Shown here in pieces: positions 26,893-56,483 of a DNA stretch of 64,000 bases; positions within the stretch are counted from its first letter, which is position 1; every line of letters starts with the position of its first letter. The stretch comes from Escherichia coli phage Wa28. Under the pieces are notes generated by a model that searched no databases, was not told where the DNA came from, and saw nothing but the letters and a program-made list of their open reading frames with translations. Where the stretch lies: sequence record LC788710.1; one strand, 5' to 3'. The position numbers were made by a program, and so were the translations under genes.

Positions 26893-27055
26893 GTTAGCGC
26901 TAATTACCAATTCTCGAAATCTCATAAGATTACACATGAAGGTGTGCCCAGAGGTTACCTAGATGAGAATGAGTCTCATTACCGCCCCGGTACTTAGCAA
27001 GCTAATAGTCACACTATGTGATGATAACATAGTGTGACTATTTTATTTTTAATTG

Positions 27056-27790
27056 TTAGGCGACTTTTAATTTATCAATGAATTGTTGCGGGCTGCAACT
27101 ATATTCTGCGCGTTCTTCCTCGGTCATACCTTCCCAACACATTTTTAAACGGTCGGCTAGGAATTGATAATCATTATCATCATCTAATGATTCATCAATA
27201 AAGGTTTCACCGATCAATGTTACGCCGATTGATAGGATATCATTAACGGCTTGAGCGTCCAGCGTTTTAAATCCAGCACTTGCCGCCGCCGATAATACGC
27301 CTTTATGATCATCAATCATCGTAAAATCAGCGTTCGGATATAACTGTTTAAACAGTTCAAAGTAATAGCTTTTGTATACAGCGTCTTTACTATGATATAT
27401 TTCGCTAACCTTATCCGCTTCAAAGTATTTGTGTAATGTATCGCGAGAGAATACGCGGATATTGCTATTTCCGCGCCCTCGCAAGCCTTGTTTACGCAAA
27501 TAAAAGTAATCGCTTTTAGACATAAGGCGCGCGGTACAAATAATATTTAAAGTATTTGCATCATTCATACATTGGCGCATATATTCAACCAATGGCAATA
27601 AAGAATCCTGCATAATTAAATCATGTTTACAGGCTTCGCGTGAATACTTATTTAAATTTAAATTCCCGTTATCATCAAAGCAAGGCGCTACACGGTGGAA
27701 AGAATTAATGATAGTTCCGTCTAAGTCCCAAATCATAACGCGGGAAATATGCGGGAAAGCGCGGGCAATATTCAAGGTTACTTGATTCAT
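27056..27790 (-). CDS. dmp: 5-prime deoxyribonucleotidase (Dmp-like, HAD superfamily)
   Basis: 244 aa; HAD motif I DLDGT near N-terminus; first gene of a pre-early-like block. Confidence 0.65.
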   Translation of the reverse strand: MNQVTLNIARAFPHISRVMIWDLDGTIINSFHRVAPCFDDNGNLNLNKYSREACKHDLIMQDSLLPLVEYMRQCMNDANTLNIICTARLMSKSDYFYLRKQGLRGRGNSNIRVFSRDTLHKYFEADKVSEIYHSKDAVYKSYYFELFKQLYPNADFTMIDDHKGVLSAAASAGFKTLDAQAVNDILSIGVTLIGETFIDESLDDDNDYQFLADRLKMCWEGMTEEERAEYSCSPQQFIDKLKVA

Positions 27791-27877
27791 TTGTTACATT
27801 CTCCATTTAAGGGATTTAGGTTAATTCAATCTTGCCAGCTAATTATATTGGATTAGCTGGCAATGTTCAATTAACTA

Positions 27878-28270
27878 TTAATTAGTGAGGCCATACGCTA
27901 GCGCGTCACCAATAAAGCTAATATCCTCACCATGTACGCTAGAACGAATCCCCGCGCAAGTGTAAACCATCGCGCTAGCTTCTGGATTGCAGACCGGACA
28001 CGGCTTAACAACTGCAAACGCTAGACCGGATTTAAGCGCATCAATAATAATTGTTTGCACTGTCAAAGTATCAGCGTAAACGCCTTTTGCTTTCGTATGG
28101 CTTGCCACTTTGCCGGTATCATAAGCAAAGGTAGTAACCTGCAAAGCGTCGTTATAATTCAGCAAATCAAAATTAACTTGCCCCGCCTCGACGTGATAAC
28201 GTTCACCATTAGAATAAACTAGAACGATGGAAGAAGTAGCACGATCAAAAGGAATGTTTTGGTTTTTCAT
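27878..28270 (-). CDS. hypothetical protein
   Basis: 130 aa ORF. Confidence 0.4.
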   Translation of the reverse strand: MKNQNIPFDRATSSIVLVYSNGERYHVEAGQVNFDLLNYNDALQVTTFAYDTGKVASHTKAKGVYADTLTVQTIIIDALKSGLAFAVVKPCPVCNPEASAMVYTCAGIRSSVHGEDISFIGDALAYGLTN

Positions 28271-28302
28271 GTTTATGACTCCAGATTATTTAATTACGGG
28301 AT

Positions 28303-28581
28303 TTATTGAAAAAATACATTTAAAGATAAATCAGTTTTACGAAAATATGTTTCGTCGCCGTCTTTCCTTTCTTGATTAAGGTAATCGCCTGTCATTACCT
28401 GAATATGATCTTTTTCGAAAAAGATCATATTTTCGCCAATATTACTATCCCATACGGCATACATTCCCGCGTACATTCCACGGGTAACTAAATAAACGCA
28501 ACTATCAAAAGACATTTCAGACCATGCAATATCTTCTAAACAATTGCTATCAGGGATAGATATATTAATTTTACTAGCCAT
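28303..28581 (-). CDS. hypothetical protein
   Basis: 92 aa ORF. Confidence 0.4.
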   Translation of the reverse strand: MASKINISIPDSNCLEDIAWSEMSFDSCVYLVTRGMYAGMYAVWDSNIGENMIFFEKDHIQVMTGDYLNQERKDGDETYFRKTDLSLNVFFQ

Positions 28582-28633
28582 TTAATAAACCTTTTATTAA
28601 TGGCGGTATATTTCAACCGCCGATTAAATTTAA

Positions 28634-30298
28634 TTATGCAAAGAATTTACCGTTTTTGAAATCAATCAAAGTACGTTGCCCGTTTGCATAGGTAATTAAA
28701 TGCGTTTGCGTCCAGCTTGACGCGCCCACGTTGTAGCCCATATCAAGGGAACCAGCAACGCCAGCGGTATAAACGCCGCCGTAAATGCTAGCCGTGTGAG
28801 TGTGACCAGTGTTAAGGCGTCCCAACTTTTTAAACTGCTTAGGATTGCCCCGACTGCCGTTAATGCCATTGTGACCATGTACGCCGCATTCAATGCCAGC
28901 GATTTTAAAGGACTGGTCAGTAGTCAAAAAAATGGCGTTAAATTCGCATCCTGCAACGTTTCTAAGCGCATAATCTAACACGTTAAAGGTATCATCCTTT
29001 TCAGCAATAGCGGCGTAAATCGCAGCGTTTAGACGGTGATACAGTTCCGCGTTTGCGGGATCATCTTTAATGTTTGCGTTACGATCATCTAACCAGCGGG
29101 ATAATGCTAAATCATGGTTAGATTCCACAATGATTGTTTGACTAAAATCACGTTCCATAGATTCTAATACGCGTCCAGTATCGATAAGATCATCAATAAC
29201 TTTATCACGTCCGGCGGCGTATTGTTTCGCAAGGAATACACCACTAGCGCGGTTATGATGGTTACGCGATGTAAAATCATGCACGTCATGAATAAATTGA
29301 TATTTCGGTTTAAGAATATCAAGCAAGCTGTTTTCACTAGCCCATGAAGCGACGGCGCAATCATCATCTAATTTTTCGGCGTGAATATCGCCATATTGCA
29401 AGCCTAGAACATGATCGGACGTTTCAAAACATCCGGTAGGCATAGCGCAAACATTCAAATCATAGAACATTCCGCTTTCATCCATTGTTTCAATCTGGCG
29501 AGCATAAAATTCGCCGTCGTCGTCGAACTCTACCAGCAAAGCGCCATAATTATGTAAAGCCTCAGCTTTTTGACCTGCTTTCTGCTGAATGTAGTTTTTA
29601 AGCGTAGCCGTTCCGGTTGAATACATACGGCACACTACTTCACCTTTTAACGCTGGCACACTTTCAGCGGTAATTTTAGCGTGACCAATTGCCAGACCTT
29701 CAATATTTAAAGCCGTGGCGGTTTCTGCGAATCCTGAAAGCGGGTAATCTGCCGTTGGTAAAACGTTAATTTCAGCCATGAAAGCAAAGCGGCGGTTATT
29801 TAAAAATACGTTTTTATCACAAACATATTTATCAAATGCGGGATCGTATTTAATACCGTTTGCCCCTTCCCCGTTCTGAAATCCGTTTTTGTTGTAAATG
29901 AATTTGCTAACAAGTAATTCAGCGCCGCAATATTCAGCGAATTTTTCCAGACTTGCTAAAAAGTTTTTATGCGGGAAAGTATTATTTTGAATCGACGTTA
30001 GAATAAAACGGCGACCGGACTTAACTTCCCATTGCTCAACGGTGCTAGAAACAATTCCCGCCGCCTCTGGGCGATCATCGTTTTTAATCGCCTTTTCGGC
30101 TTTTGCCGCTTTCGGTTTCGCTGGTTTATTTGCTTCCAGCCAGTCACAAATTGCGGTCGAATGTTTCGGCGTACCATAAACAGCTTTTGAAATATCGTCG
30201 CAAACTTCCAATTTAGTAGCGCGTAAACGCTTACCGTAGAAGTTAAAATCTGCGGCCATTTTCAAAATTTGAGCTTGTTTTTCTGCGGAAATATTCAT
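28634..30298 (-). CDS. A1: A1-like pre-early protein with metallophosphoesterase motifs
   Basis: 554 aa; GDIH and GHTH metallophosphatase-like motifs; synteny with dmp and A2-like gene. Confidence 0.6.
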   Translation of the reverse strand: MNISAEKQAQILKMAADFNFYGKRLRATKLEVCDDISKAVYGTPKHSTAICDWLEANKPAKPKAAKAEKAIKNDDRPEAAGIVSSTVEQWEVKSGRRFILTSIQNNTFPHKNFLASLEKFAEYCGAELLVSKFIYNKNGFQNGEGANGIKYDPAFDKYVCDKNVFLNNRRFAFMAEINVLPTADYPLSGFAETATALNIEGLAIGHAKITAESVPALKGEVVCRMYSTGTATLKNYIQQKAGQKAEALHNYGALLVEFDDDGEFYARQIETMDESGMFYDLNVCAMPTGCFETSDHVLGLQYGDIHAEKLDDDCAVASWASENSLLDILKPKYQFIHDVHDFTSRNHHNRASGVFLAKQYAAGRDKVIDDLIDTGRVLESMERDFSQTIIVESNHDLALSRWLDDRNANIKDDPANAELYHRLNAAIYAAIAEKDDTFNVLDYALRNVAGCEFNAIFLTTDQSFKIAGIECGVHGHNGINGSRGNPKQFKKLGRLNTGHTHTASIYGGVYTAGVAGSLDMGYNVGASSWTQTHLITYANGQRTLIDFKNGKFFA

Positions 30299-30406
30299 AA
30301 CTAAATCAACTCCTATAAAGGGATAAATATTAATACTGGCAATATTGCCAAATATAACGCCTTGCCTGAAGTGAGGACAATTTAAAAGGCGTTATAATTT
30401 GCAATA

Positions 30407-30652
30407 TTATTCTAGAATTGGCATAAGACTAGAACTAAAACCGCAACTAATAGCCAGCGTTAAAAATATAATCGCTAGATATTTTTGTTTATTAGCTTGA
30501 CGTTTAAACATATCAGCGGCATAAGCTGAATTAATGCCGATAATAGAGATTATATATTTGCCGTAATTAAATATAAATATAGCGGCAACTATAAATAAAC
30601 CTAAAATAAACGCTTCACTAGGGAAGAAAATCATTTTAATAACTCCGGTCAA
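30407..30652 (-). CDS. small integral membrane protein
   Basis: 81 aa, three hydrophobic segments. Confidence 0.4.
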   Translation of the reverse strand: MTGVIKMIFFPSEAFILGLFIVAAIFIFNYGKYIISIIGINSAYAADMFKRQANKQKYLAIIFLTLAISCGFSSSLMPILE

Positions 30653-30664
30653 AGGGAAATTATA

Positions 30665-30682
30665 GCGGGGAATATTCCCCGC
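30665..30682. terminator. perfect 18-bp palindrome GCGGGGAATATTCCCCGC, likely bidirectional terminator
   Basis: read directly, just downstream of A2-like stop. Confidence 0.5.
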
Positions 30683-30692
30683 TAATTAGAAT

Positions 30693-31109
30693 TTATTCAC
30701 CTGCGGCCTGTTTTACTTCCTCCGCTACGCCTAACAATTGCGCTACGGCGTCCAGCGTTTCCAGTTTAGCACTTTCAAGGCTTGCCAGATCGTCGGCATC
30801 TTTTACGATACCTGAATCAATGGCGTGTTTAGCGATGACGCGCACATAGTGAGCTTTACGAATTGAGCTACCGCCGCCAACTTTACGCGGTTTATCGCTT
30901 TTCTGGTATGCTTTTGCGCTTGTCAGTTTAGAACGTACAGAAACAGGACTTGCAGCGCCAACGGCGGCGGCAATTTCTTTCAGGCCGTCACTGTTAGCAA
31001 ATTCAATTCCGCTTTTAGCGACCATTTCAGAATACATAGAAACAGCTTTTTCGGTGTTTTCTTCGTTCCAAGAGAATTTTGCTGTTTTTTCGGTTTTAAC
31101 GTTAGACAT
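30693..31109 (-). CDS. A2: A2-like pre-early DNA-binding protein
   Basis: 138 aa; position upstream of A1-like gene. Confidence 0.45.
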   Translation of the reverse strand: MSNVKTEKTAKFSWNEENTEKAVSMYSEMVAKSGIEFANSDGLKEIAAAVGAASPVSVRSKLTSAKAYQKSDKPRKVGGGSSIRKAHYVRVIAKHAIDSGIVKDADDLASLESAKLETLDAVAQLLGVAEEVKQAAGE

Positions 31110-32099
31110 AATTTAATACTCCATTCAATTATTAATTAAGGGATTATGATTAACTAATGTTAATCCATATATTCCCCATATTTCAGGGGAATATAAAGTT
31201 AGCACTAATTAGCTAATAGCTTGCCATTTATCATCTTTCTGAATGATCTTTACAACGTCGCCGGATTTAACGCGAACATTATAAATTGGCTTGCCGTGGT
31301 TACTGCGTTCCGTTTCCGCAAAGACCGCTTCAATTTTATCGAAAGGATCTAGCGCCGCACCTTTAATACGTTCGGCTTTTCCAGTTAATTCATCCGTTTT
31401 AGTAACGAAAGGAATAAATACAGATTGACCTACTTTCGGCGCGGTAAACTTCCCCGCCGTTGTAGTCTGGCCTTTCGTTTCCGTCTTGCCGTCCTACGAG
31501 ATAAATAATAGGTTATTCCCGAAAATGGCGCAAGCGTATTTTTGTAAAGAAACGTAAAGACAAACGCCACCGCACCACGTCCAGCGGCGCACTAAATTTA
31601 ATGAAACGGGCGCGCGAATAACACCAAAACAACCATTTTAGCAAGTAATTTTTTCATTTATATCTGCTCTAGGGTACTTGACAAAATCTAAAATCCTCGT
31701 GGTGAGGTTTTCTCGGTGTACCCCTTATGATTGCCTATCTTTTCCTTTGAGGCGCTTAGAATCGCTTACAGAGCGTTTTAGACCCTGTTAATAACTTATA
31801 CAAAAAGCAAAAATGAAATTTAATGAGTTATCCACTTGATTTTTCAAAAAAGTATTTTCTGCTGTTATTTTTCATTGACAAATAAGTTTAGACGTGCATT
31901 GATTGGTTAGCAGACTAACAATCGCTAGGATGATAATCACGCTGGTGGATTGTAGCAGCCGAAACAGTTAGCAGACTATTAATCATGGAAAATCTCATTA
32001 GCCAACTAACTATTTCATATTATATAATATACTTATAAATTAAAGAGAAATAATAACTATAAGAAACTATCGGCTAAGTGAGAACCACTATCATTTAAC

Positions 32100-32220
32100 T
32101 TATGCACAAAGTTATCCACAGCACTTTTTGACTTGACACAATAAGCAACATTTTGGCGACTTATCCACAGACTTATATACAGGTTATCCTACTGTATAAA
32201 TATACAGGGTAGAATGGTAG
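32100..32220. repeat. left copy of ~110-bp imperfect inverted repeat with DnaA boxes and LexA-box-like palindrome
   Basis: TTATCCACA at ~32111 and ~32161; CTGTATAAATATACAG at ~32200; reverse complement matches 36180-36320. Confidence 0.7.
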
Positions 32221-32456
32221 CAGTAACAACCGCAATCAAATTTAAGCGGTCTAAAACGCGCTACACGGCGTTTTCTCACTGCTGCCCTTATTATAATAAA
32301 GCCTTGTGTACGCTTACAGAGAGCTAGAAATAGAAAACGCGCGGTTATCATAAAAACAGGCAGTAAGCAAGAAATAAAAAACCTTTTCTTTTTTCTTGCC
32401 CCTAGCGAACAATTATATATATCATTCACTCACCGATTAACGAGGGAGACAAAGAA

Positions 32457-33458
32457 ATGTCTACTGTAAGAATTGCAGTACCAGCAAACGCCACTATTAT
32501 TAATGGTAGTTTGCGCAACCTGCTAGATGGTAGTAGTGCGGCAAGCGTACAACATACCGCTACTATTGTAGAAAAGATTCACGATGAAATTTTAGACAAT
32601 AATGATACTCATTATTCAGTTGATGATTTCACGCTATTACTAGACCAGACAAGGGCGCTAGTAATTTTCAACCGTGATTATCACATTTTCCGTAATAGTC
32701 GGGGAACTGATATTGATTTTATCATTGTTGGTTATAGTGAGTCTCATAGTGGTTACATTGCGCGATTATATAACGTGCAAGAAAAAGAGCAGGTAACAGC
32801 AACAAAAGTAAATAATATCAGACTGGATAGTGTCGGATCGTTATTAAATAGTATCTGGCGTGAATTATCATCCAGTTATAAAGGTGCTGATAGTGACGCA
32901 ATCGAAACAACTGGCGTATTGTGTTTTGAACGCGCTACGGGTAACATGTTGATTCCTAATGATTATTTAGAGTATGGGAATGAATCAAACGTTGCAAACG
33001 CTGGATTTACACTTCTCCCGCTTGACAATGTAGCAAAACAGGCTGTACAATCTCAAACTTCAAGCGCAAATGCGCAAACTACTGAAAATAAAGGAAATAT
33101 TATGTCTAAAGTATCTTCTATCGTTGCCGCTAATAAATCCGCCGTTATTAACGCTGCTAAACTGGAAGCGGGTAAAATTGCACTGACTCAAATCACAAAA
33201 GTAGCGGCGAAAAAAGCGCCGTTTATGATTAAAGGGTATATTGATACGCCGATTGGTCGTGTAGTGATCGCTAACCTGCTGAGTGTAGCGGTTGACCAGT
33301 ACGCCCCGACTAACCAGAAAGCGAAAGCGGTAGCAGGCGCGGCAATGGAAGCGGCAATGTTGGAAATGGTACAGAGTTTCAATATTGCTGAAATGATCGA
33401 TGAAATGGTAAAAGGCATTGACATTTCTACCTTTACCCAAAACACCGAAACAGAATAA
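32457..33458 (+). CDS. hypothetical protein (first gene of opposite-strand block)
   Basis: 333 aa ORF with Shine-Dalgarno GAGGGAG upstream. Confidence 0.5.
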   Translation: MSTVRIAVPANATIINGSLRNLLDGSSAASVQHTATIVEKIHDEILDNNDTHYSVDDFTLLLDQTRALVIFNRDYHIFRNSRGTDIDFIIVGYSESHSGYIARLYNVQEKEQVTATKVNNIRLDSVGSLLNSIWRELSSSYKGADSDAIETTGVLCFERATGNMLIPNDYLEYGNESNVANAGFTLLPLDNVAKQAVQSQTSSANAQTTENKGNIMSKVSSIVAANKSAVINAAKLEAGKIALTQITKVAAKKAPFMIKGYIDTPIGRVVIANLLSVAVDQYAPTNQKAKAVAGAAMEAAMLEMVQSFNIAEMIDEMVKGIDISTFTQNTETE

Positions 33459-33467
33459 TAATTACTA

Positions 33468-33497
33468 GCGGGGATTATTCCCCGCTTTACTATTTCC
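33468..33497 (+). terminator. rho-independent terminator
   Basis: palindrome GCGGGGATTATTCCCCGC followed by T-rich tract. Confidence 0.55.
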
Positions 33498-33524
33498 CTG
33501 TTAATTGTTAGGAGACTAATTATT

Positions 33525-33836
33525 ATGCAACTGAACCAAACCATGTTGGCGCAATTAGCCGAAAAAATGCCGAATAGCCCACACGTTAATTATTCAGATG
33601 ATAAAAGCAATATTCCTGTATGGGAAAAGCAAGGGCGTCCCTTTTTATGGGAACATGTAGAAAGCGCTAATAATTATCATGCTTTCTTTGATCGTGGTTA
33701 TGGCTGGCTATGTATTTTTGTAGGTGAAACTTTGCTGGATTATGGAATGGATGAAATAGTCCGTGATGACGTAATTTTCTTGAATAAAGGATTTTACGAT
33801 GTAGCAAATTCTCTTTATTTCCCTGTTAATTGTTAG
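33525..33836 (+). CDS. hypothetical protein
   Basis: 103 aa; preceded by conserved leader TTTCCCTGTTAATTGTTAGGAGACTAATTA. Confidence 0.45.
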   Translation: MQLNQTMLAQLAEKMPNSPHVNYSDDKSNIPVWEKQGRPFLWEHVESANNYHAFFDRGYGWLCIFVGETLLDYGMDEIVRDDVIFLNKGFYDVANSLYFPVNC

Positions 33837-33846
33837 GAGACTAATT

Positions 33847-34341
33847 ATGTCAGAAGAAAAATATGGCTTTTCGCTAGAAAGTGTGAATGAAGCTAAACAC
33901 GATATGATCGTTTTAGTTGATTGTCATACTGGCTATTGCGGGGAGGGCTGGACGGAGGAACATTTTGTTCCCGCTGGCTGTGATCTGGACGCTTTCGCAA
34001 ACGAACACGCATATGATAATGCTTCTCGTTTCGGTAGCGATGGGGAAGAAGATGAAGAAACAGGGGAATGGATTGAAAATGATAATGTTTATGCGAGTAT
34101 TTATCATTATCAATTGAGTAAATCCGGTATTTATGTAAATGGCGGCGATCCTATTAATACCGTTATGAAACTAATTATTAAACACGGTGGCGCGGAAATA
34201 ATTGGTAACAAGGCGTTATTATATGCAAATCGATTAAAACAGCTTGTTTATATTCCTGATAATTCCCGTTGGGATGAATATGCCGTTTTACAGAAAGAAC
34301 TAAAACGCTGTTTCGGTGTGGAAGCATTAGAAATAGTCTAA
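33847..34341 (+). CDS. hypothetical acidic protein
   Basis: 164 aa; same conserved leader/RBS as previous gene. Confidence 0.5.
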   Translation: MSEEKYGFSLESVNEAKHDMIVLVDCHTGYCGEGWTEEHFVPAGCDLDAFANEHAYDNASRFGSDGEEDEETGEWIENDNVYASIYHYQLSKSGIYVNGGDPINTVMKLIIKHGGAEIIGNKALLYANRLKQLVYIPDNSRWDEYAVLQKELKRCFGVEALEIV

Positions 34342-34355
34342 TGTAAAGTTTTGTA

Positions 34356-34383
34356 AAGGTCGCCTATTATGGCGACCTTTTTT
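34356..34383 (+). terminator. rho-independent terminator
   Basis: 10-bp stem AAAGGTCGCC/GGCGACCTTT then T-run. Confidence 0.7.
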
Positions 34384-34448
34384 GTTATAATGCCTTTACA
34401 CCGAAACGGTGGGTTGAAAATTTTCCCTGATTTCTAGGAGGCGTTAAA

Positions 34449-34676
34449 ATGGTACATTCATCATCTTCTGCAATTTTTAACGGTATGGAATGGGTATCCG
34501 TTCCCGCTATTGTCAGCGTTATGGTTTCTGAGTTCGGCATAGGTAAAACTTATGTTACCATTCAGGGGCTTTACGACAATGACAAGATTGACCAGCAAAC
34601 CGCCGGATTTTTGCTGGATGAATTGAAAGCTAACCATTGCACTAAAAAGCAAGCGGCAAAAATTGTTTTAATGTAA
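34449..34676 (+). CDS. hypothetical protein
   Basis: 75 aa; RBS TCTAGGAGG. Confidence 0.4.
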   Translation: MVHSSSSAIFNGMEWVSVPAIVSVMVSEFGIGKTYVTIQGLYDNDKIDQQTAGFLLDELKANHCTKKQAAKIVLM

Positions 34677-34874
34677 TTATTAAAGGGGGTATATTATCCC
34701 CTAATTTCTAGGAGCTAATAAAATGGTTATTTTTCGATCTATTCTGGCTAGTATCTTGGGCGCTATTTTATCGCTGTTTGTAATAGCTTTCGGCGTTCAC
34801 GTGGTTATTATTGGAGCAGGTATCGCGGGGTTTTCTTACTTGTTAGGCTGTATGACTGGTAAAGGGGAATAAAA

Positions 34875-35087
34875 ATGTTAAAGAATGTTTCCCTTGCCCG
34901 TTCCAAAGGTTTTAAGCTGGTGGATGTTAACACGTTCGAGCGTCCAGATTGTAAAATTGAATATGTAGCACGCAACAAAAATGCTTTCCGTGTTACAGAA
35001 AAGAAGTTTGACAAGCGCGGCAATTTGGTAGCCGAAACGATTAAACACTTTGCCACCTTTTACGCTGCATTTCGTGGGGTATTATAA
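34875..35087 (+). CDS. hypothetical protein
   Basis: 70 aa ORF. Confidence 0.4.
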   Translation: MLKNVSLARSKGFKLVDVNTFERPDCKIEYVARNKNAFRVTEKKFDKRGNLVAETIKHFATFYAAFRGVL

Positions 35088-35193
35088 TGGAAAGGGCAAT
35101 TGTTAAAATGTTAACTTTTGTTTGTGGCGTGTCTAGTGCTGCAATGTTGATCACGCTAGTGATTATGATTATCCGTGACGCGAGGATCTTTTA

Positions 35194-35538
35194 ATGGTAA
35201 TTTATGAGGGCAATCGCTTTATTACTAATTGCCGTCCGGCATTATTAGCAAACTATTTAAATCAGCTTTCACCAGTTTATAAAGGCGTAGTTAATATCTA
35301 TGAGGGCAAAGCACATTATAAAATTTCTGCCGTTGTCGCCCGTGAACTAGCGTTTCAATTTTTAACTTTTGGGTCTTGTGACGTTCAGGTTATGGGGGAA
35401 GCGTTAATAGCGGAAAATGAAAATGAATTTATTGACATTTTCCGCAAAGTATGTACGGAGCGCCTGATTATGAAAGGCGCATATATTCAATCAACCGCTG
35501 AAAGTATTGAAACAGCGTTTCGAAAGGTGGCGCAATGA
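35194..35538 (+). CDS. hypothetical protein
   Basis: 114 aa ORF. Confidence 0.45.
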   Translation: MVIYEGNRFITNCRPALLANYLNQLSPVYKGVVNIYEGKAHYKISAVVARELAFQFLTFGSCDVQVMGEALIAENENEFIDIFRKVCTERLIMKGAYIQSTAESIETAFRKVAQ

Positions 35539-35735
35539 CTAAAGATGAAGCACTAGAAAAAATGAAACAAGGTTTCAAAGTTAGTAATCAATATTTTACT
35601 AGCGATGAATTTTTGTACATGAAAGAAAACGGCGTGATCATGTCAGAAGATGGTTACAATTTTAATGATTGGTTTTTCAATATTCGCAAGGGGGAGGAAT
35701 GGAAGCTAGACGGTTGGAGCGTTTACCGTGAATAG
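35535..35735 (+). CDS. hypothetical protein
   Basis: 66 aa; start overlaps previous stop (ATGA). Confidence 0.4.
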   Translation: MTKDEALEKMKQGFKVSNQYFTSDEFLYMKENGVIMSEDGYNFNDWFFNIRKGEEWKLDGWSVYRE

Positions 35736-35861
35736 CTGGTGGCGAAAAACACAAAGCCATAAATCTAATAATACCGCTGGGAAACATTCCCAGCGTTTAC
35801 GATTTGGTAATGGCTTTACAATGATATTGATAATCATTCTCATTCTAGGAGCGATGGCGTT

Positions 35862-36056
35862 ATGAGTGATAAAATTGTTGTAACTAAAACTACTGTTACC
35901 GTTGATACTTTCTTTGTGCCTGATACGCTGGAAAATCGGCAAGCGGTGGAGCGTGGCGATTATGATAAAGTGATTTATGATAACGATGGTTACTACCAAC
36001 ATTTGGTAGACTCCTACGGCGAAAGCGAAAAGATCACACATCGACTACCAGACTAA
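35862..36056 (+). CDS. hypothetical protein
   Basis: 64 aa; RBS TCTAGGAGCG. Confidence 0.4.
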   Translation: MSDKIVVTKTTVTVDTFFVPDTLENRQAVERGDYDKVIYDNDGYYQHLVDSYGESEKITHRLPD

Positions 36057-36179
36057 TAATAACGGGGCGCAACTATCTGCCCCCTTTTCTGGCCTCCTCC
36101 AATTTTGCCCTTATTAAAATACCTCCTCCAAAAATAAACGCGTTAGAATGCGTTACAGAGCGTTTAAAGGCTATATTAG

Positions 36180-36320
36180 ATTATTCTCCTACTGGAATAT
36201 ACTGTATATTTATACAGTAGAATAACCTGTTAATAAGTCTGTTGATAACGCCTCAAAATCGCTAGGATTTTGTCAAGTCAAATCATGCTGTTAATAAACC
36301 TGTGGATAACTTAAATAGCA
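36180..36320. repeat. right copy of inverted repeat with near-consensus LexA-box-like palindrome and DnaA boxes
   Basis: TACTGTATATTTATACAGTA at ~36196; TGTGGATAA at ~36301; reverse complement aligns to 32100-32220. Confidence 0.7.
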
Positions 36321-36480
36321 GTGTTTCTCACTTCCCTTTCTAAATGCGAATCATTATCATTATGCAACTCATTCGCATTCAATTCTGTAAATGATAACCA
36401 TTCTCATTCCACTTTCTAAACGCGAATCATTATCATTCGCATTCAACTTTTTAAATGAGAATCAATCTCATTATCATTCG
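36300..36480. repeat. AT-rich imperfect palindrome repeats (GCGAATCATTATCATTCGC family, about 4 copies)
   Basis: direct reading. Confidence 0.7.
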
Positions 36481-36521
36481 CATTTCGGCAGGCAGGGCAT
36501 TTTCATTTTGCCCTGCGCTTT

Positions 36522-37123
36522 TGTGCAAATCCGACATTGCTCCACGGGTGTTACGTGCGGGCGTGTATGTGCGAATCCGACAATTTTTGGTAGTGTGCAA
36601 ATCCGATGGGAAATATTTTTATAGTGTGCGAATCCGACAATGAATTTTCCTAAAAACTCCAGCAATCCGCAACTGCGATGCAATCCAGCTGGATTTACTA
36701 GAGTATGTGCAAATCCGACAAGTGTTAAGGTGTGCGAATCCGATAAGATTTTTGTGATTTCGATTGGAGGGTGTGTGATTGTGTGGGTTTGGGGAGAAGT
36801 TGAGAGAGTGAGAGAAAATAAGGGTAGAAACTGGAGTGGGCAGCATGGGTGGCGTGAAACGCCTGGTTTGCTGCGTTTTTGGGGATAATGCGGGATGTTT
36901 TGGCTAGAATTGAGATTAGGGGAGATAAAGCGAAATTTTATTAGCAAAATGGGGCAAAATCGCTTGACAAGTGAAAATTCCTGTGGCTCTAAAAAACTCA
37001 GGCAAATATGGGCCTTCGGCCCGAAATAATGCTGCTATTTTCAGTGTTCCTAAAAACTTTGGAGACTCCTATCAATGTGCAAATCCGACCATAAATTTCT
37101 AGAAACACAGTGTGCAAATCCGA
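36522..37123. repeat. direct repeat array of 14-15-mer GTGCRAATCCGAYA (about 9 copies, irregular 30-45 bp spacing); candidate injection-stop-signal-like region
   Basis: copies near 36522, 36568, 36595, 36626, 36706, 36731, 37077, 37110 plus a degenerate one near 36666. Confidence 0.75.
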
Positions 37124-37285
37124 TAGCAATTTCCAGAAATGTGTTTTGGAAAAATGTCTCCTAGAAATAACCGCCCTCCCTATAACCGCCCTGTATTAAA
37201 CCGCCTATTGCTGGAGTTTCTAGGAACATGAAAACCGCCTGAGTTGGCGAGAGTTTTCCTAGAAACTTAGGAGTCTACTAGAAAG
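37085..37285. repeat. palindromic TTYCTAGRAA motif, about 6 copies
   Basis: direct reading (tttctagaaac, ttccagaaatg, ctcctagaaat, tttctaggaac, ttcctagaaac, tactagaaag). Confidence 0.6.
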
Positions 37286-37587
37286 TGTTGTGCTATCCTA
37301 GCAGATGAGCGGCAACAGGTGTATCATCTTGAACATTAATTTATCTATTCAACAGTATTAGTTTTTATATAAGTATAAGATCCCCAGGGGATTGTGAGAG
37401 ATGCTCCACCCCTGGGATACGAATTGCGTGAGATGGTACAAAACTTCTGAAGATTTCCCTAGCCCTCCGACAAGCTACGGGGAAATAGAAGTTTCCCATC
37501 CACCATCCGTATCCGGGTGGATCTCTTTATTCTATGTTATTTCATAGAGTTATTATAACATGCAGAAATCATAACGTCAAGTAGAGT

Positions 37588-38478
37588 TTATTCATCGAAC
37601 ATGAGATTTCCTTTCATCCCCATCTCCGCATACTCCATGAGTTCTCCTAGGGATCTCACAGGGTAATCTACTTTACTGAAGTTATCATAGATCTTACATG
37701 AACTCTCGTACAACTCGTTAGGTATCTGCAATTTGTTATCAGTTAGCTTCTCATAACGTGTAGAAGATTTTGTACCTTCAAACAGAACTGCAATAACTGC
37801 GGCGATTTGTTTGGTAAGATCATCTGCTCCTAGAATTATTCTATTAATAGCAATCGTTACTTCATGCTTAGGTTTCACAGGTGGAAGGATAGGCTTGAGA
37901 TCCTTAGGTAAAGGTTCTGTTCCTAGGAATCCTTCTTTTGTGCGGAACCAATAATTATCTAGATCAGATATTGTCTTAGACTTATTCCATATAGTGAAGC
38001 AAGGTTTATTTCCTTCACGATCTCTGTATTCACGAACTGGAAGATAATGATCAGGGAATGAGTTGAGTGCATCATGCATTGGTGAGCCTGTCTTTTTAAA
38101 TGACAAACCGTACAACTCATTATAATTCATAACTTCATCTTCATAAACATGGAAATCTTTATATGCTGGAAGATTAAACCATTCCTGAAGTGAATGAACT
38201 GCAAAACGTTGTGCCCAAGCATGCATCACAAGAACTCTGTACTCTTTTACTTCATCTTTTGGAGAAGTACCTCTAACTGTTCTAGCTGACCGAATACAGA
38301 ACATCTCAACAACACGTCTCTCGTTTAAAGAAAGCTCAGAGTAACAACGTTCATGGCAACCTTCTAGCATTTCTAGAAGTTCACGTAGTTTCTCTACATC
38401 GACCGGTGGAAAAGGTCTCTCTTCCACCGCGAATTTACCAACTACACCTTTCGGCTTTCTATTACTATAAAATCCCAT
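37588..38478 (-). CDS. hypothetical protein
   Basis: 296 aa ORF. Confidence 0.45.
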   Translation of the reverse strand: MGFYSNRKPKGVVGKFAVEERPFPPVDVEKLRELLEMLEGCHERCYSELSLNERRVVEMFCIRSARTVRGTSPKDEVKEYRVLVMHAWAQRFAVHSLQEWFNLPAYKDFHVYEDEVMNYNELYGLSFKKTGSPMHDALNSFPDHYLPVREYRDREGNKPCFTIWNKSKTISDLDNYWFRTKEGFLGTEPLPKDLKPILPPVKPKHEVTIAINRIILGADDLTKQIAAVIAVLFEGTKSSTRYEKLTDNKLQIPNELYESSCKIYDNFSKVDYPVRSLGELMEYAEMGMKGNLMFDE

Positions 38479-39089
38479 TAACGACCTCTAGCCTTATCTG
38501 CATCAATAGCTTCGAATACTTTCGTTAACATTTCTTCAAGCTCACCTTCTTTGCTAGGATTGCTCAAACGAATAGTATATGAGTTCCTAGAAACTCCTGA
38601 GTCTTCTTGTGCTCCGCGATCTTTTGCAAAGCCCATCATTGCAACGCCAGCTTTATTCCACTCGTCTACGCTAGATGCTTCCCCAAATTTATATGATTGC
38701 GTATTGCTTACCACGCCACCACAAGGAACATTGTGCATATCCGACATTAATCTTTTATCGGAATTATTCAGCATTGCGATTGGTCCCGACTGCCACGGAT
38801 CTCGAATAGTCACTGGAGTACTCGGGCGGTTCACTTCAGTCTTCACGAGTTTGTATCCAGCATCGATTAGTGCATTAATCAGATTATCAGCCGGGATACG
38901 AGCCGTGCCAAAGATAGCACGAGCATTCATAAGCTTAGCCTGAAATTCCTTGCAACCTTGAAGATCAGTGTGCAAAAACGACAGTTGCATAGATTTAAAC
39001 TGTACTGTAGCAGTCAGATCTTTAAAGCTGTAATCCCATGTGTCGAGTTCATGATCTGCAACTACTTTAATGGTTTGTTGTGTAAACAT
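38478..39089 (-). CDS. hypothetical protein
   Basis: 203 aa ORF. Confidence 0.45.
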   Translation of the reverse strand: MFTQQTIKVVADHELDTWDYSFKDLTATVQFKSMQLSFLHTDLQGCKEFQAKLMNARAIFGTARIPADNLINALIDAGYKLVKTEVNRPSTPVTIRDPWQSGPIAMLNNSDKRLMSDMHNVPCGGVVSNTQSYKFGEASSVDEWNKAGVAMMGFAKDRGAQEDSGVSRNSYTIRLSNPSKEGELEEMLTKVFEAIDADKARGR

Positions 39090-44495: not shown

Positions 44496-45086
44496 TCAAA
44501 CATTGATATCTCCCCTCAATACCGCTGCCACATCTTCATCGATTTGGAGTATTTCACCAGTAGTGCAGTTAACCACTTTATCATAGCTTGTGAACTTGCC
44601 AGACACAATATCCTCTAGAGGAATAGGAGTCTTGCTCATCTCAAAAGAGACGTTGATATAACGTGGGTCACGCACAGAATTGGTGTGCACATGTCCGTGA
44701 ATGTTTAGCTTACCACGAAGTTCTGCTTCGTGCAATGGACAATGTGACAGCCAAAACTTCTTGCCACCACCTGTTTGCTTACCTAGAGCCTGAATATCAT
44801 CATAAACGTCTACAAGATCTTTAATACGCAGACCCTGACGTTCAGCATCGTGGTTGCCCATGATTAATTGGTTAGGCACATTGTAGATAACCGACTTCAA
44901 TTTAGCCAACCCTTCACGCCCCACGGCAATATCTCCTAGCAATACAAGTTTTGTACGCTTGCCAATGTGCTTGGACAAAGTATCTAGGATATATTCATCG
45001 TGCTCTTTCCTGTTCTTAAACCACGGACGGAAGCGAAGAGTTCCAGGATGGTCTAGGTGCAAATCCGACCAGAATTTAACTTTCAT
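44496..45086 (-). CDS. calcineurin-like metallophosphoesterase
   Basis: 196 aa; DLHLDH, GDIAVGREG, GNHD motifs. Confidence 0.55.
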   Translation of the reverse strand: MKVKFWSDLHLDHPGTLRFRPWFKNRKEHDEYILDTLSKHIGKRTKLVLLGDIAVGREGLAKLKSVIYNVPNQLIMGNHDAERQGLRIKDLVDVYDDIQALGKQTGGGKKFWLSHCPLHEAELRGKLNIHGHVHTNSVRDPRYINVSFEMSKTPIPLEDIVSGKFTSYDKVVNCTTGEILQIDEDVAAVLRGDINV

Positions 45087-49721: not shown

Positions 49722-50474
49722 TTATCCAACTAGTGGTTCTAGCTCTAAGTCACAGAAGTGGTACACATCGGTACGAAGTGCATCAAGTCCGTTGAAGGTA
49801 TTCTCAAATTTATGAGAAATATATTTTTCAGGAATACCGCTTTCAGACGGATGATCTGTCTCGATGCGATACTTATTAGTAATACCAGATTCAACCTTAA
49901 TAAGCATGGAATCCATATCTAGAGTATTGGTTTCCATGATTAGTTCTCCCTCATTGGGGAAACGCACATCGGTAACGATTGCGACGTCTGGGTCGTCTTT
50001 ATCGATGGATTGCTCCAGAATTATGAGCCAAATGCGTTCATGCACCAGCTGCCTTCCTAACTCAGTACCTACAAGCTGTAGCATTTTTCTTGGGGAGATA
50101 AATACGCTATACAGCGCATCATCAGCTTGCCCAATTAACTGCTGAGGATCAAGGTATTTTCCTTCAAATATCGGCCAAACGTACGAGAAGTCCTCAAACT
50201 TATCGATACCATACTTAAACCATACGTCTCTAGCTCGCTCCAATTGAGATTGTGTGACTGTAAACCATTGGTCAATCTCTTTTCCCCTGCGCTCTCCCAG
50301 AAACTCTGGAGTTACCCCGAGGATTACGGATGCAAGTTCGTAAACGGGTTTAGCAAAACTGTAACGACGGGATAAACACGTTGGGAACGTGTCATTACAC
50401 CAGTCAATCATTAATTCTGCAACGGTATCTTTTCCCGCACCAGCCTCACCATGTAAACCGACTAATACTGACAT
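49722..50474 (-). CDS. dnk: deoxynucleoside monophosphate kinase
   Basis: 250 aa; P-loop GEAGAGKDT at N-terminus. Confidence 0.6.
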   Translation of the reverse strand: MSVLVGLHGEAGAGKDTVAELMIDWCNDTFPTCLSRRYSFAKPVYELASVILGVTPEFLGERRGKEIDQWFTVTQSQLERARDVWFKYGIDKFEDFSYVWPIFEGKYLDPQQLIGQADDALYSVFISPRKMLQLVGTELGRQLVHERIWLIILEQSIDKDDPDVAIVTDVRFPNEGELIMETNTLDMDSMLIKVESGITNKYRIETDHPSESGIPEKYISHKFENTFNGLDALRTDVYHFCDLELEPLVG

Positions 50475-55881: not shown

Positions 55882-55957
55882 TGGTAGTTAGTAGTGGATT
55901 TGAACCACTGTAGTCGCTCCGTATGAAGGAGGTGCATAACCACTCTGCCAACTAACT
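55882..55957 (-). tRNA. tRNA-Met/Ile2 (anticodon CAT)
   Basis: hand-folded cloverleaf; T-loop TTCAAAT; anticodon loop TTCATAC; CCA encoded. Confidence 0.6.
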
Positions 55958-55963
55958 ATAATT

Positions 55964-56039
55964 TGGTACTCCGACTTGGGATCGAACCAAGATTTGACGA
56001 TTATCGGTCGCCTGTTCTAACCGTTTGAACTATCGGAGC
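55964..56039 (-). tRNA. tRNA-Ile (anticodon GAT)
   Basis: cloverleaf; anticodon loop CCGATAA (C at position 33). Confidence 0.55.
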
Positions 56040-56040
56040 A

Positions 56041-56334
56041 TTACATCATTTCGTCTAAGTAAGAAGTATACTGGTATTTAGCTTCTCCAGTTTTATCTAC
56101 TTCGACTTCTGTTCTAGGTACTTTTCGTACCAGACCGTGAATCATCTTGTACTGAATAGACTTAGATGGTTCGTGATCTTTTGGAAATACTTGTTTAACC
56201 GTTACTACTTTGAAGCCTTCACGAGGTGTTAGCACAACAACTTGATCACCTTCTTTTATTTTCCAAGACTCAGGAAATTCGTAAGTGTAGCGTTGACCAC
56301 CCGTTTGGAACACGACAGAAAGATAACGTTTCAT
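56041..56334 (-). CDS. hypothetical protein
   Basis: 97 aa; promoter upstream. Confidence 0.4.
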   Translation of the reverse strand: MKRYLSVVFQTGGQRYTYEFPESWKIKEGDQVVVLTPREGFKVVTVKQVFPKDHEPSKSIQYKMIHGLVRKVPRTEVEVDKTGEAKYQYTSYLDEMM

Positions 56335-56363
56335 TTGGTTTCCCTCTCATTAATTTATGTAAA

Positions 56364-56392
56364 TATTATAACAAGAAATAAGAGAGAAGGCA
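56364..56392 (-). promoter_or_regulatory. T5-type sigma70 promoter (TTGCCT-17-TATAAT)
   Basis: conserved architecture. Confidence 0.55.
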
Positions 56393-56408
56393 AATGAATT
56401 TTTAAATT

Positions 56409-56483
56409 TGGTGCTCCCACCAGGAATCGAACCCGGTTCAGATGCTTACAAGGCAACTGCATCGCCAGCAATGCTTTAGGAGC
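56409..56483 (-). tRNA. tRNA-Thr (anticodon TGT)
   Basis: cloverleaf; anticodon loop CTTGTAA. Confidence 0.6.

What the first reader, a model, noticed from the sequence alone, without database searches (positions are those of the whole stretch)
36300..37300. Repeat-dense non-coding kilobase: GTGCRAATCCGAYA array, AT-rich hairpins and TTYCTAGRAA palindromes, a candidate injection-stop-signal or terminal-repeat boundary
About 9 direct copies of a 14-15-mer (GTGCAAATCCGACA / GTGCGAATCCGAYA) lie at irregular 30-45 bp spacing between 36522 and 37123. They are preceded by 4 copies of an AT-rich imperfect palindrome (GCGAATCATTATCATTCGC) and followed by 6 copies of palindromic TTYCTAGRAA. No ORF explains the region, which sits between convergent gene blocks at the edge of the pre-early module. 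From memory, T5 has a repeat and DnaA-box-rich locus where first-step DNA transfer pauses, and this region is the positional equivalent. The 14-mer itself looks like a binding site for an unknown factor.
Basis: partly seen in the sequence, partly recalled or inferred. Interest (0 to 1): 0.7.

Follow-up and report, generated by a model that had tools for sequence, protein, structure and literature searches.

The report
T5-type injection-stop and terminal-repeat-end region
This repeat-packed non-coding kilobase matches a region already described in phage T5, where first-step DNA entry pauses and the 10-kb terminal repeat ends; it is real and conserved across the phage family, but how it works is still unknown.

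Summary
Eight same-strand copies of GTGCRAATCCGA lie at 36523-37123, where about 1 would be expected. Four AT-rich palindromes precede them, and six TTYCTAGRAA-type palindromes follow. No conserved ORF or Rfam RNA covers the region.

The window is a T5-like phage. The region is 78% identical over 1.35 kb to T5 "Repeat Region 3". GenBank annotates that T5 region as the injection stop signal, the 7.9% nick, "direct repeat D" copies 1-9 and the end of the left terminal repeat. The repeat spacing (46/26/31/81/25/~344/35) is the same here.

By homology the genome's left end is at 26946 and the repeat ends at 36989. That end falls between copies 1-6 and 7-8.

- The 12-mer array flanks the repeat end in every record whose repeat end does not coincide with the nick (T5-like genera, IME260, My1). 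The core persists in Vibrio phage pVp-1, where no repeat end is annotated.
- The AT-rich palindromes behave like Fur operators. A matrix built from them picks out the fhuA and ent-fep promoters in E. coli.
- A near-perfect LexA-type box sits beside the DnaA boxes.
- Two motifs are shared with the left terminus.

The mechanism is not resolved: arrest of entry, restart of entry, or packaging recognition.

The parts
26946..26990 (+). Predicted left genome terminus, which is also the start of the terminal repeat. It carries a Fur-like palindrome (26962-26980) and ACCGCCC (26981-26987).
   Evidence: The first base of the Sw2 record (PhageTerm) and the last base of the SIY1lw record both align to 26946. 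The palindrome family hit is and the ACCGCCC hit. ATGAGAAT(G/A)AGTCTCATTACCGCCC is shared by the window, Sw2 and My1; in the K38 record, which starts 19 nt further in, it is cut at its 5' end. T5 and IME260 keep only AGTCT...A(A/C)CGCC.
32076..32207 (+). Distant inverted partner of 36202-36333 (T5 'IRC-spacer-IRD', Repeat Region 2). It holds three consensus DnaA boxes and a LexA-like box at 32190-32209.
   Evidence: Inverted repeats of 67 nt (78%) and 58 nt (86%). DnaA boxes at 32100, 32112 and 32161. CTGT-N8-ACAG at 32192.
35823..35844 (.). Strongest Fur-box-like site, GATATTGATAATCATTCTC, 2 mismatches from the 19-bp consensus. It lies just upstream of the small pre-early ORF 35862-36056.
   Evidence: 23.2 bits.
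36064..36093 (+). Terminator-like hairpin that closes the last rightward pre-early operon.
36200..36219 (.). LexA-type SOS box TACTGTATATTTATACAGTA (T5 'palindrome D').
   Evidence: One mismatch from the ideal 20-mer, with 0 expected by chance. Near-invariant in 24 relatives. Present in T5, Sugarland, IME260, L057 and Vibrio phage pVp-1.
36202..36333 (+). T5 'IRD'-spacer-IRC'' element. It has two pairs of DnaA-type boxes 3 bp apart: 36228/36240 and 36289/36301. The box at 36301 is consensus TTATCCACA on the - strand.
   Evidence: The element and its DnaA boxes are described by Davison (bioRxiv 10.1101/866236).
36340..36475 (.). Four AT-rich palindromes (T5 direct repeats C/E), which are Fur-operator-like. 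Cores start at 36343, 36390, 36419 and 36454.
   Evidence: A matrix built from the phage palindromes retrieves the E. coli fhuA, fepD-entS, fepB-entC and fepA-fes promoters.
36492..36518 (+). GC hairpin (T5 'palindrome J') ending in CCCTGCGC. This is the sequence of T5's major 7.9% single-strand nick. The predicted nick lies between 36518 and 36519.
   Evidence: Fold of -9.3 kcal/mol, z -3.3. The position is (36518-26946)/~122 kb = 7.9%.
36523..36745 (+). Direct repeat D copies 1-6 (GTGCRAATCCGAYA), inside the terminal repeat.
36760..36940 (+). G-rich, C-poor tract (GC skew +0.68 to +0.70).
   Evidence: Equivalent tracts occur in T5, L049, L057 and pVp-1.
36951..36996 (+). Conserved box GGGGCAAAA-N4-TTGACA-N20-|TAAAAAAC. 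The right end of the terminal repeat is predicted after 36989.
   Evidence: The T5, Sw2 and SIY1lw ends are at the identical position. The box is also present in IME260, Sugarland and My1. Contig ends of several two-repeat genomes lie 465-467 nt after copy 1.
37010..37022 (+). Small hairpin GGGCCTTCGGCCC just outside the repeat end.
   Evidence: weak, z -1.2. Conserved in the alignment.
37077..37125 (+). Direct repeat D copies 7-8, outside the terminal repeat.
   Evidence: near-invariant.
37047..37265 (.). Six TTYCTAGRAA-type palindromes.
37168..37240 (+). Four AACCGCC motifs. The first two form the pair ATAACCGCCCTC / AACCGCCCTG.
   Evidence: The pair is conserved right of the repeat end in T5, IME260, Sugarland and My1; L049 keeps the first member and a variant of the second.
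36644..37229 (.). A 23-nt inverted repeat (36644-36666 and 37207-37229, 91% complementary) that brackets the repeat end.
   Evidence: I1. Both arms can be read in the T5 sequence.

Best explanation
The region is the counterpart, in a T5-like phage of the Epseptimavirus type, of T5 'Repeat Region 3'. That is the non-coding block at the right end of the about 10-kb terminal repeat. In T5 it holds the annotated injection stop signal, the 7.9% nick and the repeat boundary.

Shown here:
- Homology and synteny with the T5 region.
- Motif-for-motif correspondence with the T5 annotation.
- Predicted genome ends at 26946 and 36989.
- Conservation of the whole 1.2 kb (36155-37335), while the flanking sequence diverges.

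Inferred: it works as a composite protein-binding site, not as a gene or an RNA.
- The inner part (36200-36475) is the last DNA to enter in the first step. It is a pad of operator-like sites for host proteins: one LexA-type box, two pairs of DnaA boxes and four or more Fur-type boxes. I take this pad to be the part that holds or arrests the DNA at the envelope, extending Davison's DnaA model.
- The outer part is the same-strand GTGCRAATCCGA array on both sides of the repeat end, the TTGACA-N20 box and the AACCGCCC pair. I take it to be bound by a still unidentified factor, most likely phage-encoded. That factor would act on DNA ends or on resumption of transfer.

The confidence given applies to the identity and to the 'cis-acting multi-protein site' reading. 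Any single assignment of the 12-mer's function stands at 0.3 or less.
For: Identity:
- 451 phage records match, all of them T5-like.
- 78% identity to T5 over 1352 nt.
- The T5 GenBank features coincide with the window's motifs.
- The repeat spacing is identical in about 40 loci.
- A2, A1 and dmp lie to the left.

Non-coding and constrained.

Repeat boundary.

Protein-site nature of the 12-mer:
- It stays exact while the spacers diverge completely in Sugarland, IME260, My1, L049 and L057.
- Only its first half is kept in Vibrio phage pVp-1.

Host-factor pad:
- LexA-type box and DnaA boxes.
- Fur-like sites number 16 against 2.55 expected, and 14 of the 16 lie inside the terminal repeat.
- In 100 kb of E. 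coli, 5 of the top 6 hits of the phage-derived matrix fall in the four known Fur-regulated intergenic regions.
- The module order is conserved across genera.

Literature: the repeats and DnaA boxes are described, and no function is assigned to repeat D.
Against: - Nothing here shows that DNA entry pauses in this phage, or that any protein binds these sites.
- The matches to Fur, LexA and DnaA sites are sequence resemblances only.
- The phage palindrome consensus is TGAGAAT-n-ATTCTCA, which differs from the Fur core TGATAAT-n-ATTATCA at one symmetric position. A phage protein could be the real ligand.
- Proteins that bind on the cytoplasmic side would be expected to help entry rather than stop it.
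- My1 and L049 lack the strict LexA pattern.
- Some published repeat ends differ. chee158 and saus47N end about 50 nt after copy 6, and Seafire and Sugarland end at the nick.
Confidence: 0.85

Rival explanations
1. The GTGCRAATCCGA arrays, the TTGACA-N20 box and the AACCGCCC pair are the packaging recognition site, in the manner of pac or cosB. Terminase, through a small subunit or helper, would bind the arrays on both sides and cut at 36989. This would either start right-to-left packaging or end a packaging run. The coincidence with the injection stop would then be secondary. This reading can coexist with the best explanation.
For: - The repeat end lies between two 12-mer clusters in T5, Sw2, SIY1lw, K38, IME260 and My1.
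- The sequence around the cut is conserved across three genera.
- Two motifs of the region recur within 45 nt of the left terminus: the Fur-like palindrome and ACCGCCC.
- All copies are on the same strand.
- A 23-nt inverted repeat brackets the cut.
- From established knowledge, the last DNA packaged exits first. The T5 left end enters cells first, so packaging should start at the right end, which is this site.
- Known analogues are the lambda cosB R sites, SPP1 pacL/pacR flanking pacC, and the T7 short-repeat arrays beside its terminal repeat.
Against: - There is no 12-mer at the left terminus.
- No T5 small terminase subunit or pac site was found in the searchable literature.
- An invariant 12-mer across subfamilies is unusual for recognition sites of fast-evolving small terminase subunits.
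- No satellite or bacterial element carrying the array turned up in Enterobacterales.
Confidence: 0.3
2. The 12-mer array is the restart signal for second-step transfer. It is the first DNA to enter after the pause. It would be bound by the pre-early DNA-binding protein A2, together with membrane-associated A1, and this would ratchet or release the DNA.
For: - Copy 1 starts 5 nt beyond the nick and shear point.
- A2 and A1 are encoded in every phage examined for them that carries the array. This includes the divergent metagenomic phage L057 (46% A2 identity) and Vibrio pVp-1 (37%).
- A2 is reported to be a DNA-binding dimer required for the second step (Davison).
- The degenerate 12-mer in pVp-1 goes with its more divergent A2.
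Against: - Co-occurrence carries little information, because every family member has both.
- Copies 7-9 lie outside the repeat, and copies 1-6 are duplicated at the right genome end, where no restart is needed.
- A dimer would be expected to prefer palindromic sites.
Confidence: 0.25
3. The region is an iteron-type replication origin or a partition site. DnaA boxes, an AT-rich stretch and same-strand direct repeats bound by a phage initiator would make up the origin.
For: The architecture resembles P1 oriR, F ori2 and RK2 oriV: DnaA boxes, then an AT-rich region, then direct repeats, then a GC-rich tract.
Against: - According to Davison, citing earlier electron-microscopy work, T5 origins map near the centre of the genome. 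The replication genes are not expressed during the first step.
- No initiator gene is adjacent.
- The AT-rich stretch is made of palindromic operator-like units, not 13-mer unwinding repeats.
Confidence: 0.08
4. The region encodes a protein, for example the 157-aa ORF 36474-36947(-), or a structured RNA. The repeats would then be a by-product.
For: Some GenBank records annotate hypothetical proteins here, such as Seafire gp018 and saus47N P47N_0014. A strong minus-strand promoter lies at 37580-37552.
Against: - The ORFs shift frame, break, or start at TTG in relatives. T5 has only an 87-aa remnant.
- There is no Pfam or PHROG family match.
- The long minus-strand ORFs are expected from the G-rich + strand.
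- There is no Rfam match.
- The promoter points into a stretch that is not conserved.
Confidence: 0.02

Closest known systems
Phage T5 Repeat Region 3 / injection stop signal (iss) with the left-terminal-repeat end (AY587007 9194-10409; NC_005859 iss 9140-10149)
   Same: - It is homologous (78% nucleotide identity).
- It occupies the same position, between the pre-early and early genes.
- It shows the same order: palindrome D, DnaA-box inverted repeats, C/E repeats, palindrome J with the nick sequence, repeat D copies 1-6, G-rich tract, repeat end, repeat D copies 7-8.
- The repeat spacing is identical.
   Different: - There are eight repeat D copies, not nine. The stretch holding T5's copy 9 is absent.
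- All four DnaA-type boxes of the element are intact here, whereas Davison reports that T5 has lost one.
- About 20% of bases differ.
- The genome record appears to be a permuted, collapsed assembly, so the repeat occurs once, in mid-window.
Terminase recognition sites next to a cut site (lambda cosB R1-R3; SPP1 pacL/pacR around pacC; T7 short-repeat arrays beside its terminal repeat)
   Same: Short repeated motifs cluster within a few hundred bp of a defined genome end. As in SPP1 they lie on both sides of the cut, and as in T7 they lie beside a direct terminal repeat.
   Different: - No binding protein is known.
- The motif is absent from the other genome end.
- The distances are larger: 245-466 nt inside the end and 88-123 nt outside it.
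- This comparison rests on recalled knowledge of those systems. It is not a test.
E. coli Fur operators (fhuA, fepA-fes, fepD-entS, fepB-entC)
   Same: - The phage palindromes match the 19-bp Fur consensus at 13-17 of 19 positions.
- They occur as overlapping sites 6 bp apart.
- A matrix built from them ranks these operators at the top of 100 kb of E. coli DNA.
   Different: - The phage consensus has G/C where Fur sites have T/A (TGAGAAT against TGATAAT).
- No iron-related gene lies downstream.
- Binding was not tested.
Iteron-type plasmid origins (P1 oriR, F ori2, RK2 oriV)
   Same: DnaA boxes, an AT-rich segment and same-strand direct repeats of 12-15 bp at irregular spacing.
   Different: There is no adjacent initiator gene. 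T5 origins are reported elsewhere. The context is a terminal repeat end in a lytic phage.

Membership tests
T5 Repeat Region 3 / iss | Non-coding block at the right end of the terminal repeat, between the pre-early genes (dmp, A1, A2 and others) and the leftward early genes | tested here: met
   dmp is at 27056-27790, A1 at 28634-30298 and A2 at 30693-31109. The flanking ORFs are convergent. No conserved ORF lies within the block.
T5 Repeat Region 3 / iss | Sequence homology to the T5 region | tested here: met
   T5 locus positions 760-2085 align with window 36129-37389 at 78.4% over 1352 nt.
T5 Repeat Region 3 / iss | IRD'-spacer-IRC' element with DnaA-type boxes in pairs 3 bp apart, and an inverted partner about 4 kb to the left | tested here: met
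   Boxes lie at 36228/36240 and 36289/36301. The inverted partner is at 32076-32207.
T5 Repeat Region 3 / iss | Direct repeat D series with the T5 spacing | tested here: met
   There are 8 of T5's 9 copies. The spacing is 46/26/31/81/25/345/35 here and 46/26/31/81/25/344/35/137 in T5.
T5 Repeat Region 3 / iss | Major single-strand nick at 7.9% next to repeat D copy 1 | not testable with these tools
   The nick sequence CCCTGCGC is present at 36511-36518, which is 7.9% from the predicted left end. The nick itself needs virion DNA.
T5 Repeat Region 3 / iss | DNA transfer actually pauses here until A1 and A2 are made | not testable with these tools
   This needs blender or shear experiments, or time-resolved entry assays.
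Terminal-repeat boundary | Maps to ends that were determined in relatives | tested here: met
   The T5 end at 10139, the Sw2 PhageTerm end at 9816 and the SIY1lw repeat end all fall at ...CCTGTGG(C/A)TC|TAAAAA, which is window 36989. The left end maps to 26946.
Terminal-repeat boundary | Two-fold read depth and read-start pile-ups at both ends | not testable with these tools
   No reads are available.
Fur operator | Match to the 19-bp consensus GATAATGATAATCATTATC, with overlapping hexamer arrays | tested here: met
   16 sites have at most 5 mismatches, against 2.55 in block shuffles. Seven of them lie in 35817-36475, and pairs offset by 6 bp occur.
Fur operator | Equivalence to proven operators | tested here: met
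   In 100 kb of E. coli K-12, 5 of the top 6 hits of the phage-derived matrix fall in the fhuA, fepD-entS, fepB-entC (two hits) and fepA-fes regions. That these operons are Fur-repressed is established knowledge.
Fur operator | Binding by Fur | not testable with these tools
   This needs a gel-shift, footprint or ChIP experiment.
LexA (SOS) box | TACTG(TA)5CAGTA / CTGT-N8-ACAG | tested here: met
   The site at 36200-36219 has 1 mismatch. The site at 32190-32209 has 3 mismatches with the CTGT-N8-ACAG core intact. None is expected by chance. Binding was not tested.
Terminase recognition (pac/cos-like) site | Repeated motif next to the cut, bound by terminase and present where cuts are made | tested here: inconclusive
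   The arrays flank the right cut in every record whose repeat end does not coincide with the nick. They are absent from the left terminus. Binding cannot be tested here.
Iteron-type origin | Direct repeats with DnaA boxes, an AT-rich region, an adjacent initiator gene and origin activity | tested here: inconclusive
   The sequence architecture is present. No initiator gene is adjacent. T5 origins are reported mid-genome.
Known structured RNA (Rfam) | Covariance-model match | tested here: not met
   There were only two chance-level hits (E 0.6-0.7), far below the gathering scores.

The most novel reading that the evidence does not exclude
The T5-type stop region is a two-part device. The last 330 bp of first-step DNA is a landing pad for three host regulators: LexA, DnaA and Fur. 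Their occupancy would hold or gate the DNA at the envelope, which would tie phage entry to host iron, SOS or replication state, or to the release of these proteins as host DNA is degraded. The family-wide GTGCRAATCCGA array that straddles the repeat end would be the long-missing terminase or end-processing recognition site of T5-like phages. Neither the Fur-type nor the LexA-type reading appears in the T5 literature I could search.
Probability: 0.25. Interest if true: 0.65.

Novelty: already known. Interest (0 to 1): 0.35.

Why it matters
Why T5 DNA entry stops after 8%, and how it restarts, has been an open question since the 1960s. The cis-acting site has been sequenced and catalogued but never dissected.

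For this window the result is mainly an annotation. It fixes the genome ends at 26946 and 36989. It marks the region as non-coding, and it warns against calling ORFs there.

The comparative results narrow the experiments.
- Three host proteins become testable candidates through fur, lexA and dnaA host mutants and footprints.
- One invariant 12-mer becomes a target for pull-downs.
- Two published PhageTerm repeat ends probably mark the nick, not the genome end.

Tried and rejected
- Rfam at a permissive threshold gave nothing.
- Coding potential was rejected, because the ORFs are not conserved and match no family.
- TTGACA at 36964 as a sigma-70 promoter was rejected. No usable -10 lies at 16-19 nt, My1 has none, and the scan did not call it.
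- I compared the 12-mer by eye with CRP, marbox, IHF, FadR, the XerC arm of dif, the F-plasmid iteron and the tRNA T-arm. None gave more than a partial match, and none was pursued.
- KOPS and Chi are not enriched in the G-rich tract.
- A scan of 185,579 bacterial genomes for paired 12-mers found no enterobacterial host site. Two of the 18 loci are mis-binned T5-like contigs. The other 16 are unrelated tandem repeats whose whole units repeat, most likely by chance.
- The A2 alignment across genera does not discriminate between a host and a phage ligand.
- Literature searches for a T5 pac site, a T5 small terminase subunit, or Fur or LexA boxes in T5 found nothing relevant.
- Davison 2015 and Heusterspreute 1987 are not in the library. 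Prior mention of these boxes in those papers cannot be excluded.
Full report
**What is in the sequence**

Window 36100-37340 contains no conserved gene. Rightward genes end at 36056 and leftward genes begin at 37588.

The 14-mer GTGCRAATCCGAYA occurs 8 times with at most one mismatch, and its 12-nt core is exact in all 8. The starts are 36523, 36569, 36595, 36626, 36707, 36732, 37077 and 37112, all on the + strand. The whole 64 kb holds 14 matches at up to 2 mismatches, against 1.05 expected. Only one other exact core exists, at 45057 inside a gene.

To the left lie four AT-rich palindromes of one family, at 36343, 36390, 36419 and 36454. To the right, six TTYCTAGRAA-type palindromes lie within 219 bp.

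There are 8 copies, not 9, and the gaps are 25-81 nt plus one of 345 nt. The description is otherwise correct.

The ORFs in the region are an effect of a G-rich + strand (GC skew up to +0.70).
- They change frame, break or start at TTG in 23 relatives.
- They match no protein family.
- No Rfam family matches the region.

**What it is**

The segment matches 451 phage records, all of them T5-like Demerecviridae. The best matches are 93-97% identical and are Epseptimavirus or close relatives. It aligns with T5 at 78% over 1352 nt.

The T5 record AY587007 annotates, in the same order:
- palindrome D
- inverted repeats D' and C'
- direct repeats B and C
- palindromes E-J
- "major single-stranded nick 1, 7.9%"
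- direct repeat D copies 1-9
- the end of the left terminal repeat, between copies 6 and 7

The window's 14-mers are repeat D copies 1-8, with identical spacing. About 40 loci share that spacing.

The T5 RefSeq record labels the homologous kilobase "injection stop signal (iss)". A Salmonella phage record, S114, copies that label. Davison's preprint (bioRxiv 10.1101/866236) describes this "Repeat Region 3", its nine repeat D copies and its DnaA boxes in 25 phages. It assigns no function to repeat D.

The element is therefore already known. This is one more member.

**Genome ends**

The start of the Sw2 record (PhageTerm) and the end of the SIY1lw record both align to window 26946.

The T5 repeat end, the Sw2 PhageTerm end and the SIY1lw repeat end fall at the same nucleotide...CCTGTGGCTC|TAAAAAAC, which is window 36989. 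Contig ends of several two-repeat genomes lie 465-467 nt after copy 1.

The predicted terminal repeat is 26946-36989, about 10.04 kb. The window must come from a permuted, collapsed assembly.

CCCTGCGC, the T5 nick-1 sequence, sits at 36511-36518, which is 7.9% from the left end. A second copy at 50285 lies at about 19%, close to T5's 18.5% nick.

**Comparative results that go beyond the literature I could read**

1. The 12-mer behaves as a protein site, not as a relic.
   - In Klebsiella phages Sugarland and IME260, Pectobacterium phage My1 and metagenomic phages L049 and L057, the spacers are unalignable. The exact core persists in 5-10 same-strand copies, at 14-17, 21 or 27 nt and a few longer gaps.
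   - In Vibrio phage pVp-1 only GTGCRAA is kept.

2. In every record whose repeat end does not coincide with the nick, the end lies between two clusters of the 12-mer.
   - Those phages are T5, Sw2, SIY1lw, K38, IME260 and My1.
   - The box GGGG(G)CAAA-TTGACA-N20-22 before the cut is conserved across three genera.

3. The pair ATAACCGCCCTC / AACCGCCCTG lies to the right of the cut in T5, IME260, Sugarland and My1; L049 keeps the first member and a variant of the second.
   - ACCGCCC occurs only four times on the + strand of the window. One copy lies 36 nt inside the left terminus.
   - The AT-rich palindrome family also has a member 17 nt inside the left terminus.
   - The palindrome and ACCGCCC form one string, ATGAGAAT(G/A)AGTCTCATTACCGCCC. 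It is shared by the window, Sw2 and My1, and is cut at its 5' end in the K38 record. T5 and IME260 keep only a shorter AGTCT...A(A/C)CGCC.

4. The AT-rich palindromes look like Fur operators.
   - Sixteen sites lie within 5 mismatches of the 19-bp Fur consensus, against 2.55 in block shuffles. Fourteen of the 16 lie inside the terminal repeat.
   - A matrix built only from 68 distinct phage palindromes was scanned over 100 kb of E. coli K-12. It ranked the fhuA promoter first, then fepD-entS, then fepB-entC twice, and fepA-fes sixth.
   - Those four intergenic regions make up under 1% of the DNA scanned.

5. Palindrome D is a near-perfect LexA-type box, with 1 mismatch. A second one lies in the inverted partner at 32190.

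6. The order LexA-like box, DnaA pairs, Fur-like palindromes, YTGCGC at -10, then the 12-mer array is kept in T5, this phage, Sugarland and IME260. Parts of it are kept in My1, L049, L057 and pVp-1.

Davison's text does not mention Fur, LexA or packaging roles.

**How it most likely works**

Homology, position, constraint and non-coding status are shown. The following is inferred.

The region is a composite binding site. The inner 330 bp is the last first-step DNA to enter. I read it as a pad for host proteins that holds or gates the DNA, extending Davison's DnaA idea with Fur and LexA.

The 12-mer array and the box at the cut bind an unidentified factor. Three readings remain open and are not mutually exclusive:
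- Packaging or end recognition (about 0.3). It is favoured by the flanking of the cut, by the motifs shared with the left end, and by the rule that the end injected first is packaged last.
- Restart of transfer through A2/A1 (about 0.25). It is favoured by the array starting 5 nt beyond the nick and by A2 being a DNA-binding protein needed for the second step.
- An iteron-type origin (about 0.08).

A weakness of the host-pad idea is that cytoplasmic binders should pull DNA in rather than stop it. The phage palindrome consensus also differs from the Fur core at one symmetric position.

**Verdict**

It is already known as the T5 iss / terminal-repeat-end region. Interest is modest. It rests on the new, testable leads for an old open question.

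Noticed in passing
window 36200-36219 and 32190-32209: LexA-type SOS boxes (CTGT-N8-ACAG) lie next to the DnaA-box pairs in both arms of the 4-kb-apart inverted repeat. The first has 1 mismatch to the ideal 20-mer. The box is conserved in T5, the Klebsiella phages, L057 and Vibrio phage pVp-1. It is not mentioned in the Davison preprint.
   Followed up: partly
window 26946-36989 (whole terminal repeat); best site 35823-35841: Fur-box-like sites are concentrated in the first-step DNA: 14 of the window's 16 sites with at most 5 mismatches. The strongest site has 2 mismatches and sits just upstream of the small ORF 35862-36056 (phrog_6973). Two more lie inside dmp, at 27160 and 27166.
   Followed up: partly
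window 26946: The predicted left genome terminus lies in mid-window. The sequence to its left (1-26945) is the right end of the unique region, so the source record is a permuted assembly with the terminal repeat collapsed to one copy.
   Followed up: partly
window 50285-50292: A second CCCTGCGC lies about 19% from the predicted left end. This matches the position of T5's second major nick (18.5%) and suggests that this 8-mer marks major nick sites.
   Followed up: partly
L004 (Seafire, NC_048110) 1868; L009 (Sugarland, NC_042093) 2776: The PhageTerm 'terminal repeat' ends in these two records fall within 1 nt of the GCGC| nick site, 5-6 nt left of repeat D copy 1. They are about 370-470 nt short of the ends found in IME260, T5 and Sw2. 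They probably mark the nick rather than the genome end.
   Followed up: partly
window 37552-37580 (- strand), pointing into 37340-37550: A near-consensus sigma-70 promoter (TTGACG-17-TATAAT with an upstream TG, 11 of 12) lies just after the end of the early gene 37588-38478. It aims into a stretch that is not conserved among relatives and holds a 44-aa ORF (37365-37499) and two hairpins.
   Followed up: no
L067-L080, L082 and L083 (bacterial genomes and MAGs): The same 12-mer occurs as 2-6 same-strand tandem copies, at 18-43 bp period, in 16 unrelated bacteria. These include Paenibacillus, Bacteroidales, Myxococcota, Planctomycetes and cyanobacteria. No occurrence was found in Enterobacterales. 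The whole units repeat, so chance is likely, but I had no control scan.
   Followed up: partly
L066 (Spirochaetia MAG SABI01000336) and L081 (Clostridia MAG RZZU01000077): These two short contigs in bacterial MAGs are 80-97% identical to this window (37037-39087 and 34338-36588). They are T5-like phage DNA binned into bacterial genomes.
   Followed up: yes
window 38733-38746 and 45057-45070: Extra repeat D-like copies lie inside early genes. GTGCATATCCGACA at 38733 is conserved in relatives, and the same variant is used in the outer array of the Klebsiella phages. An exact core lies at 45057, with flanks similar to a copy in L049.
   Followed up: partly
window 36644-36666 and 37207-37229: A 23-nt inverted repeat (91% complementary, 540 nt apart) brackets repeat D copies 5-6, the G-rich tract, the repeat end and copies 7-8. 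Both arms are also present in T5.
   Followed up: partly
L035 (Shigella phage SHSML-45); hit H54 (Salmonella phage SE3): Homing or HNH endonuclease genes are inserted inside the repeat D array, with a gap of 616 nt after copy 3. The exact spacing of the inner copies is therefore not essential.
   Followed up: no
window 55882-63965 (- strand): A cluster of 25 tRNA genes, as expected for a T5-like phage.
   Followed up: no
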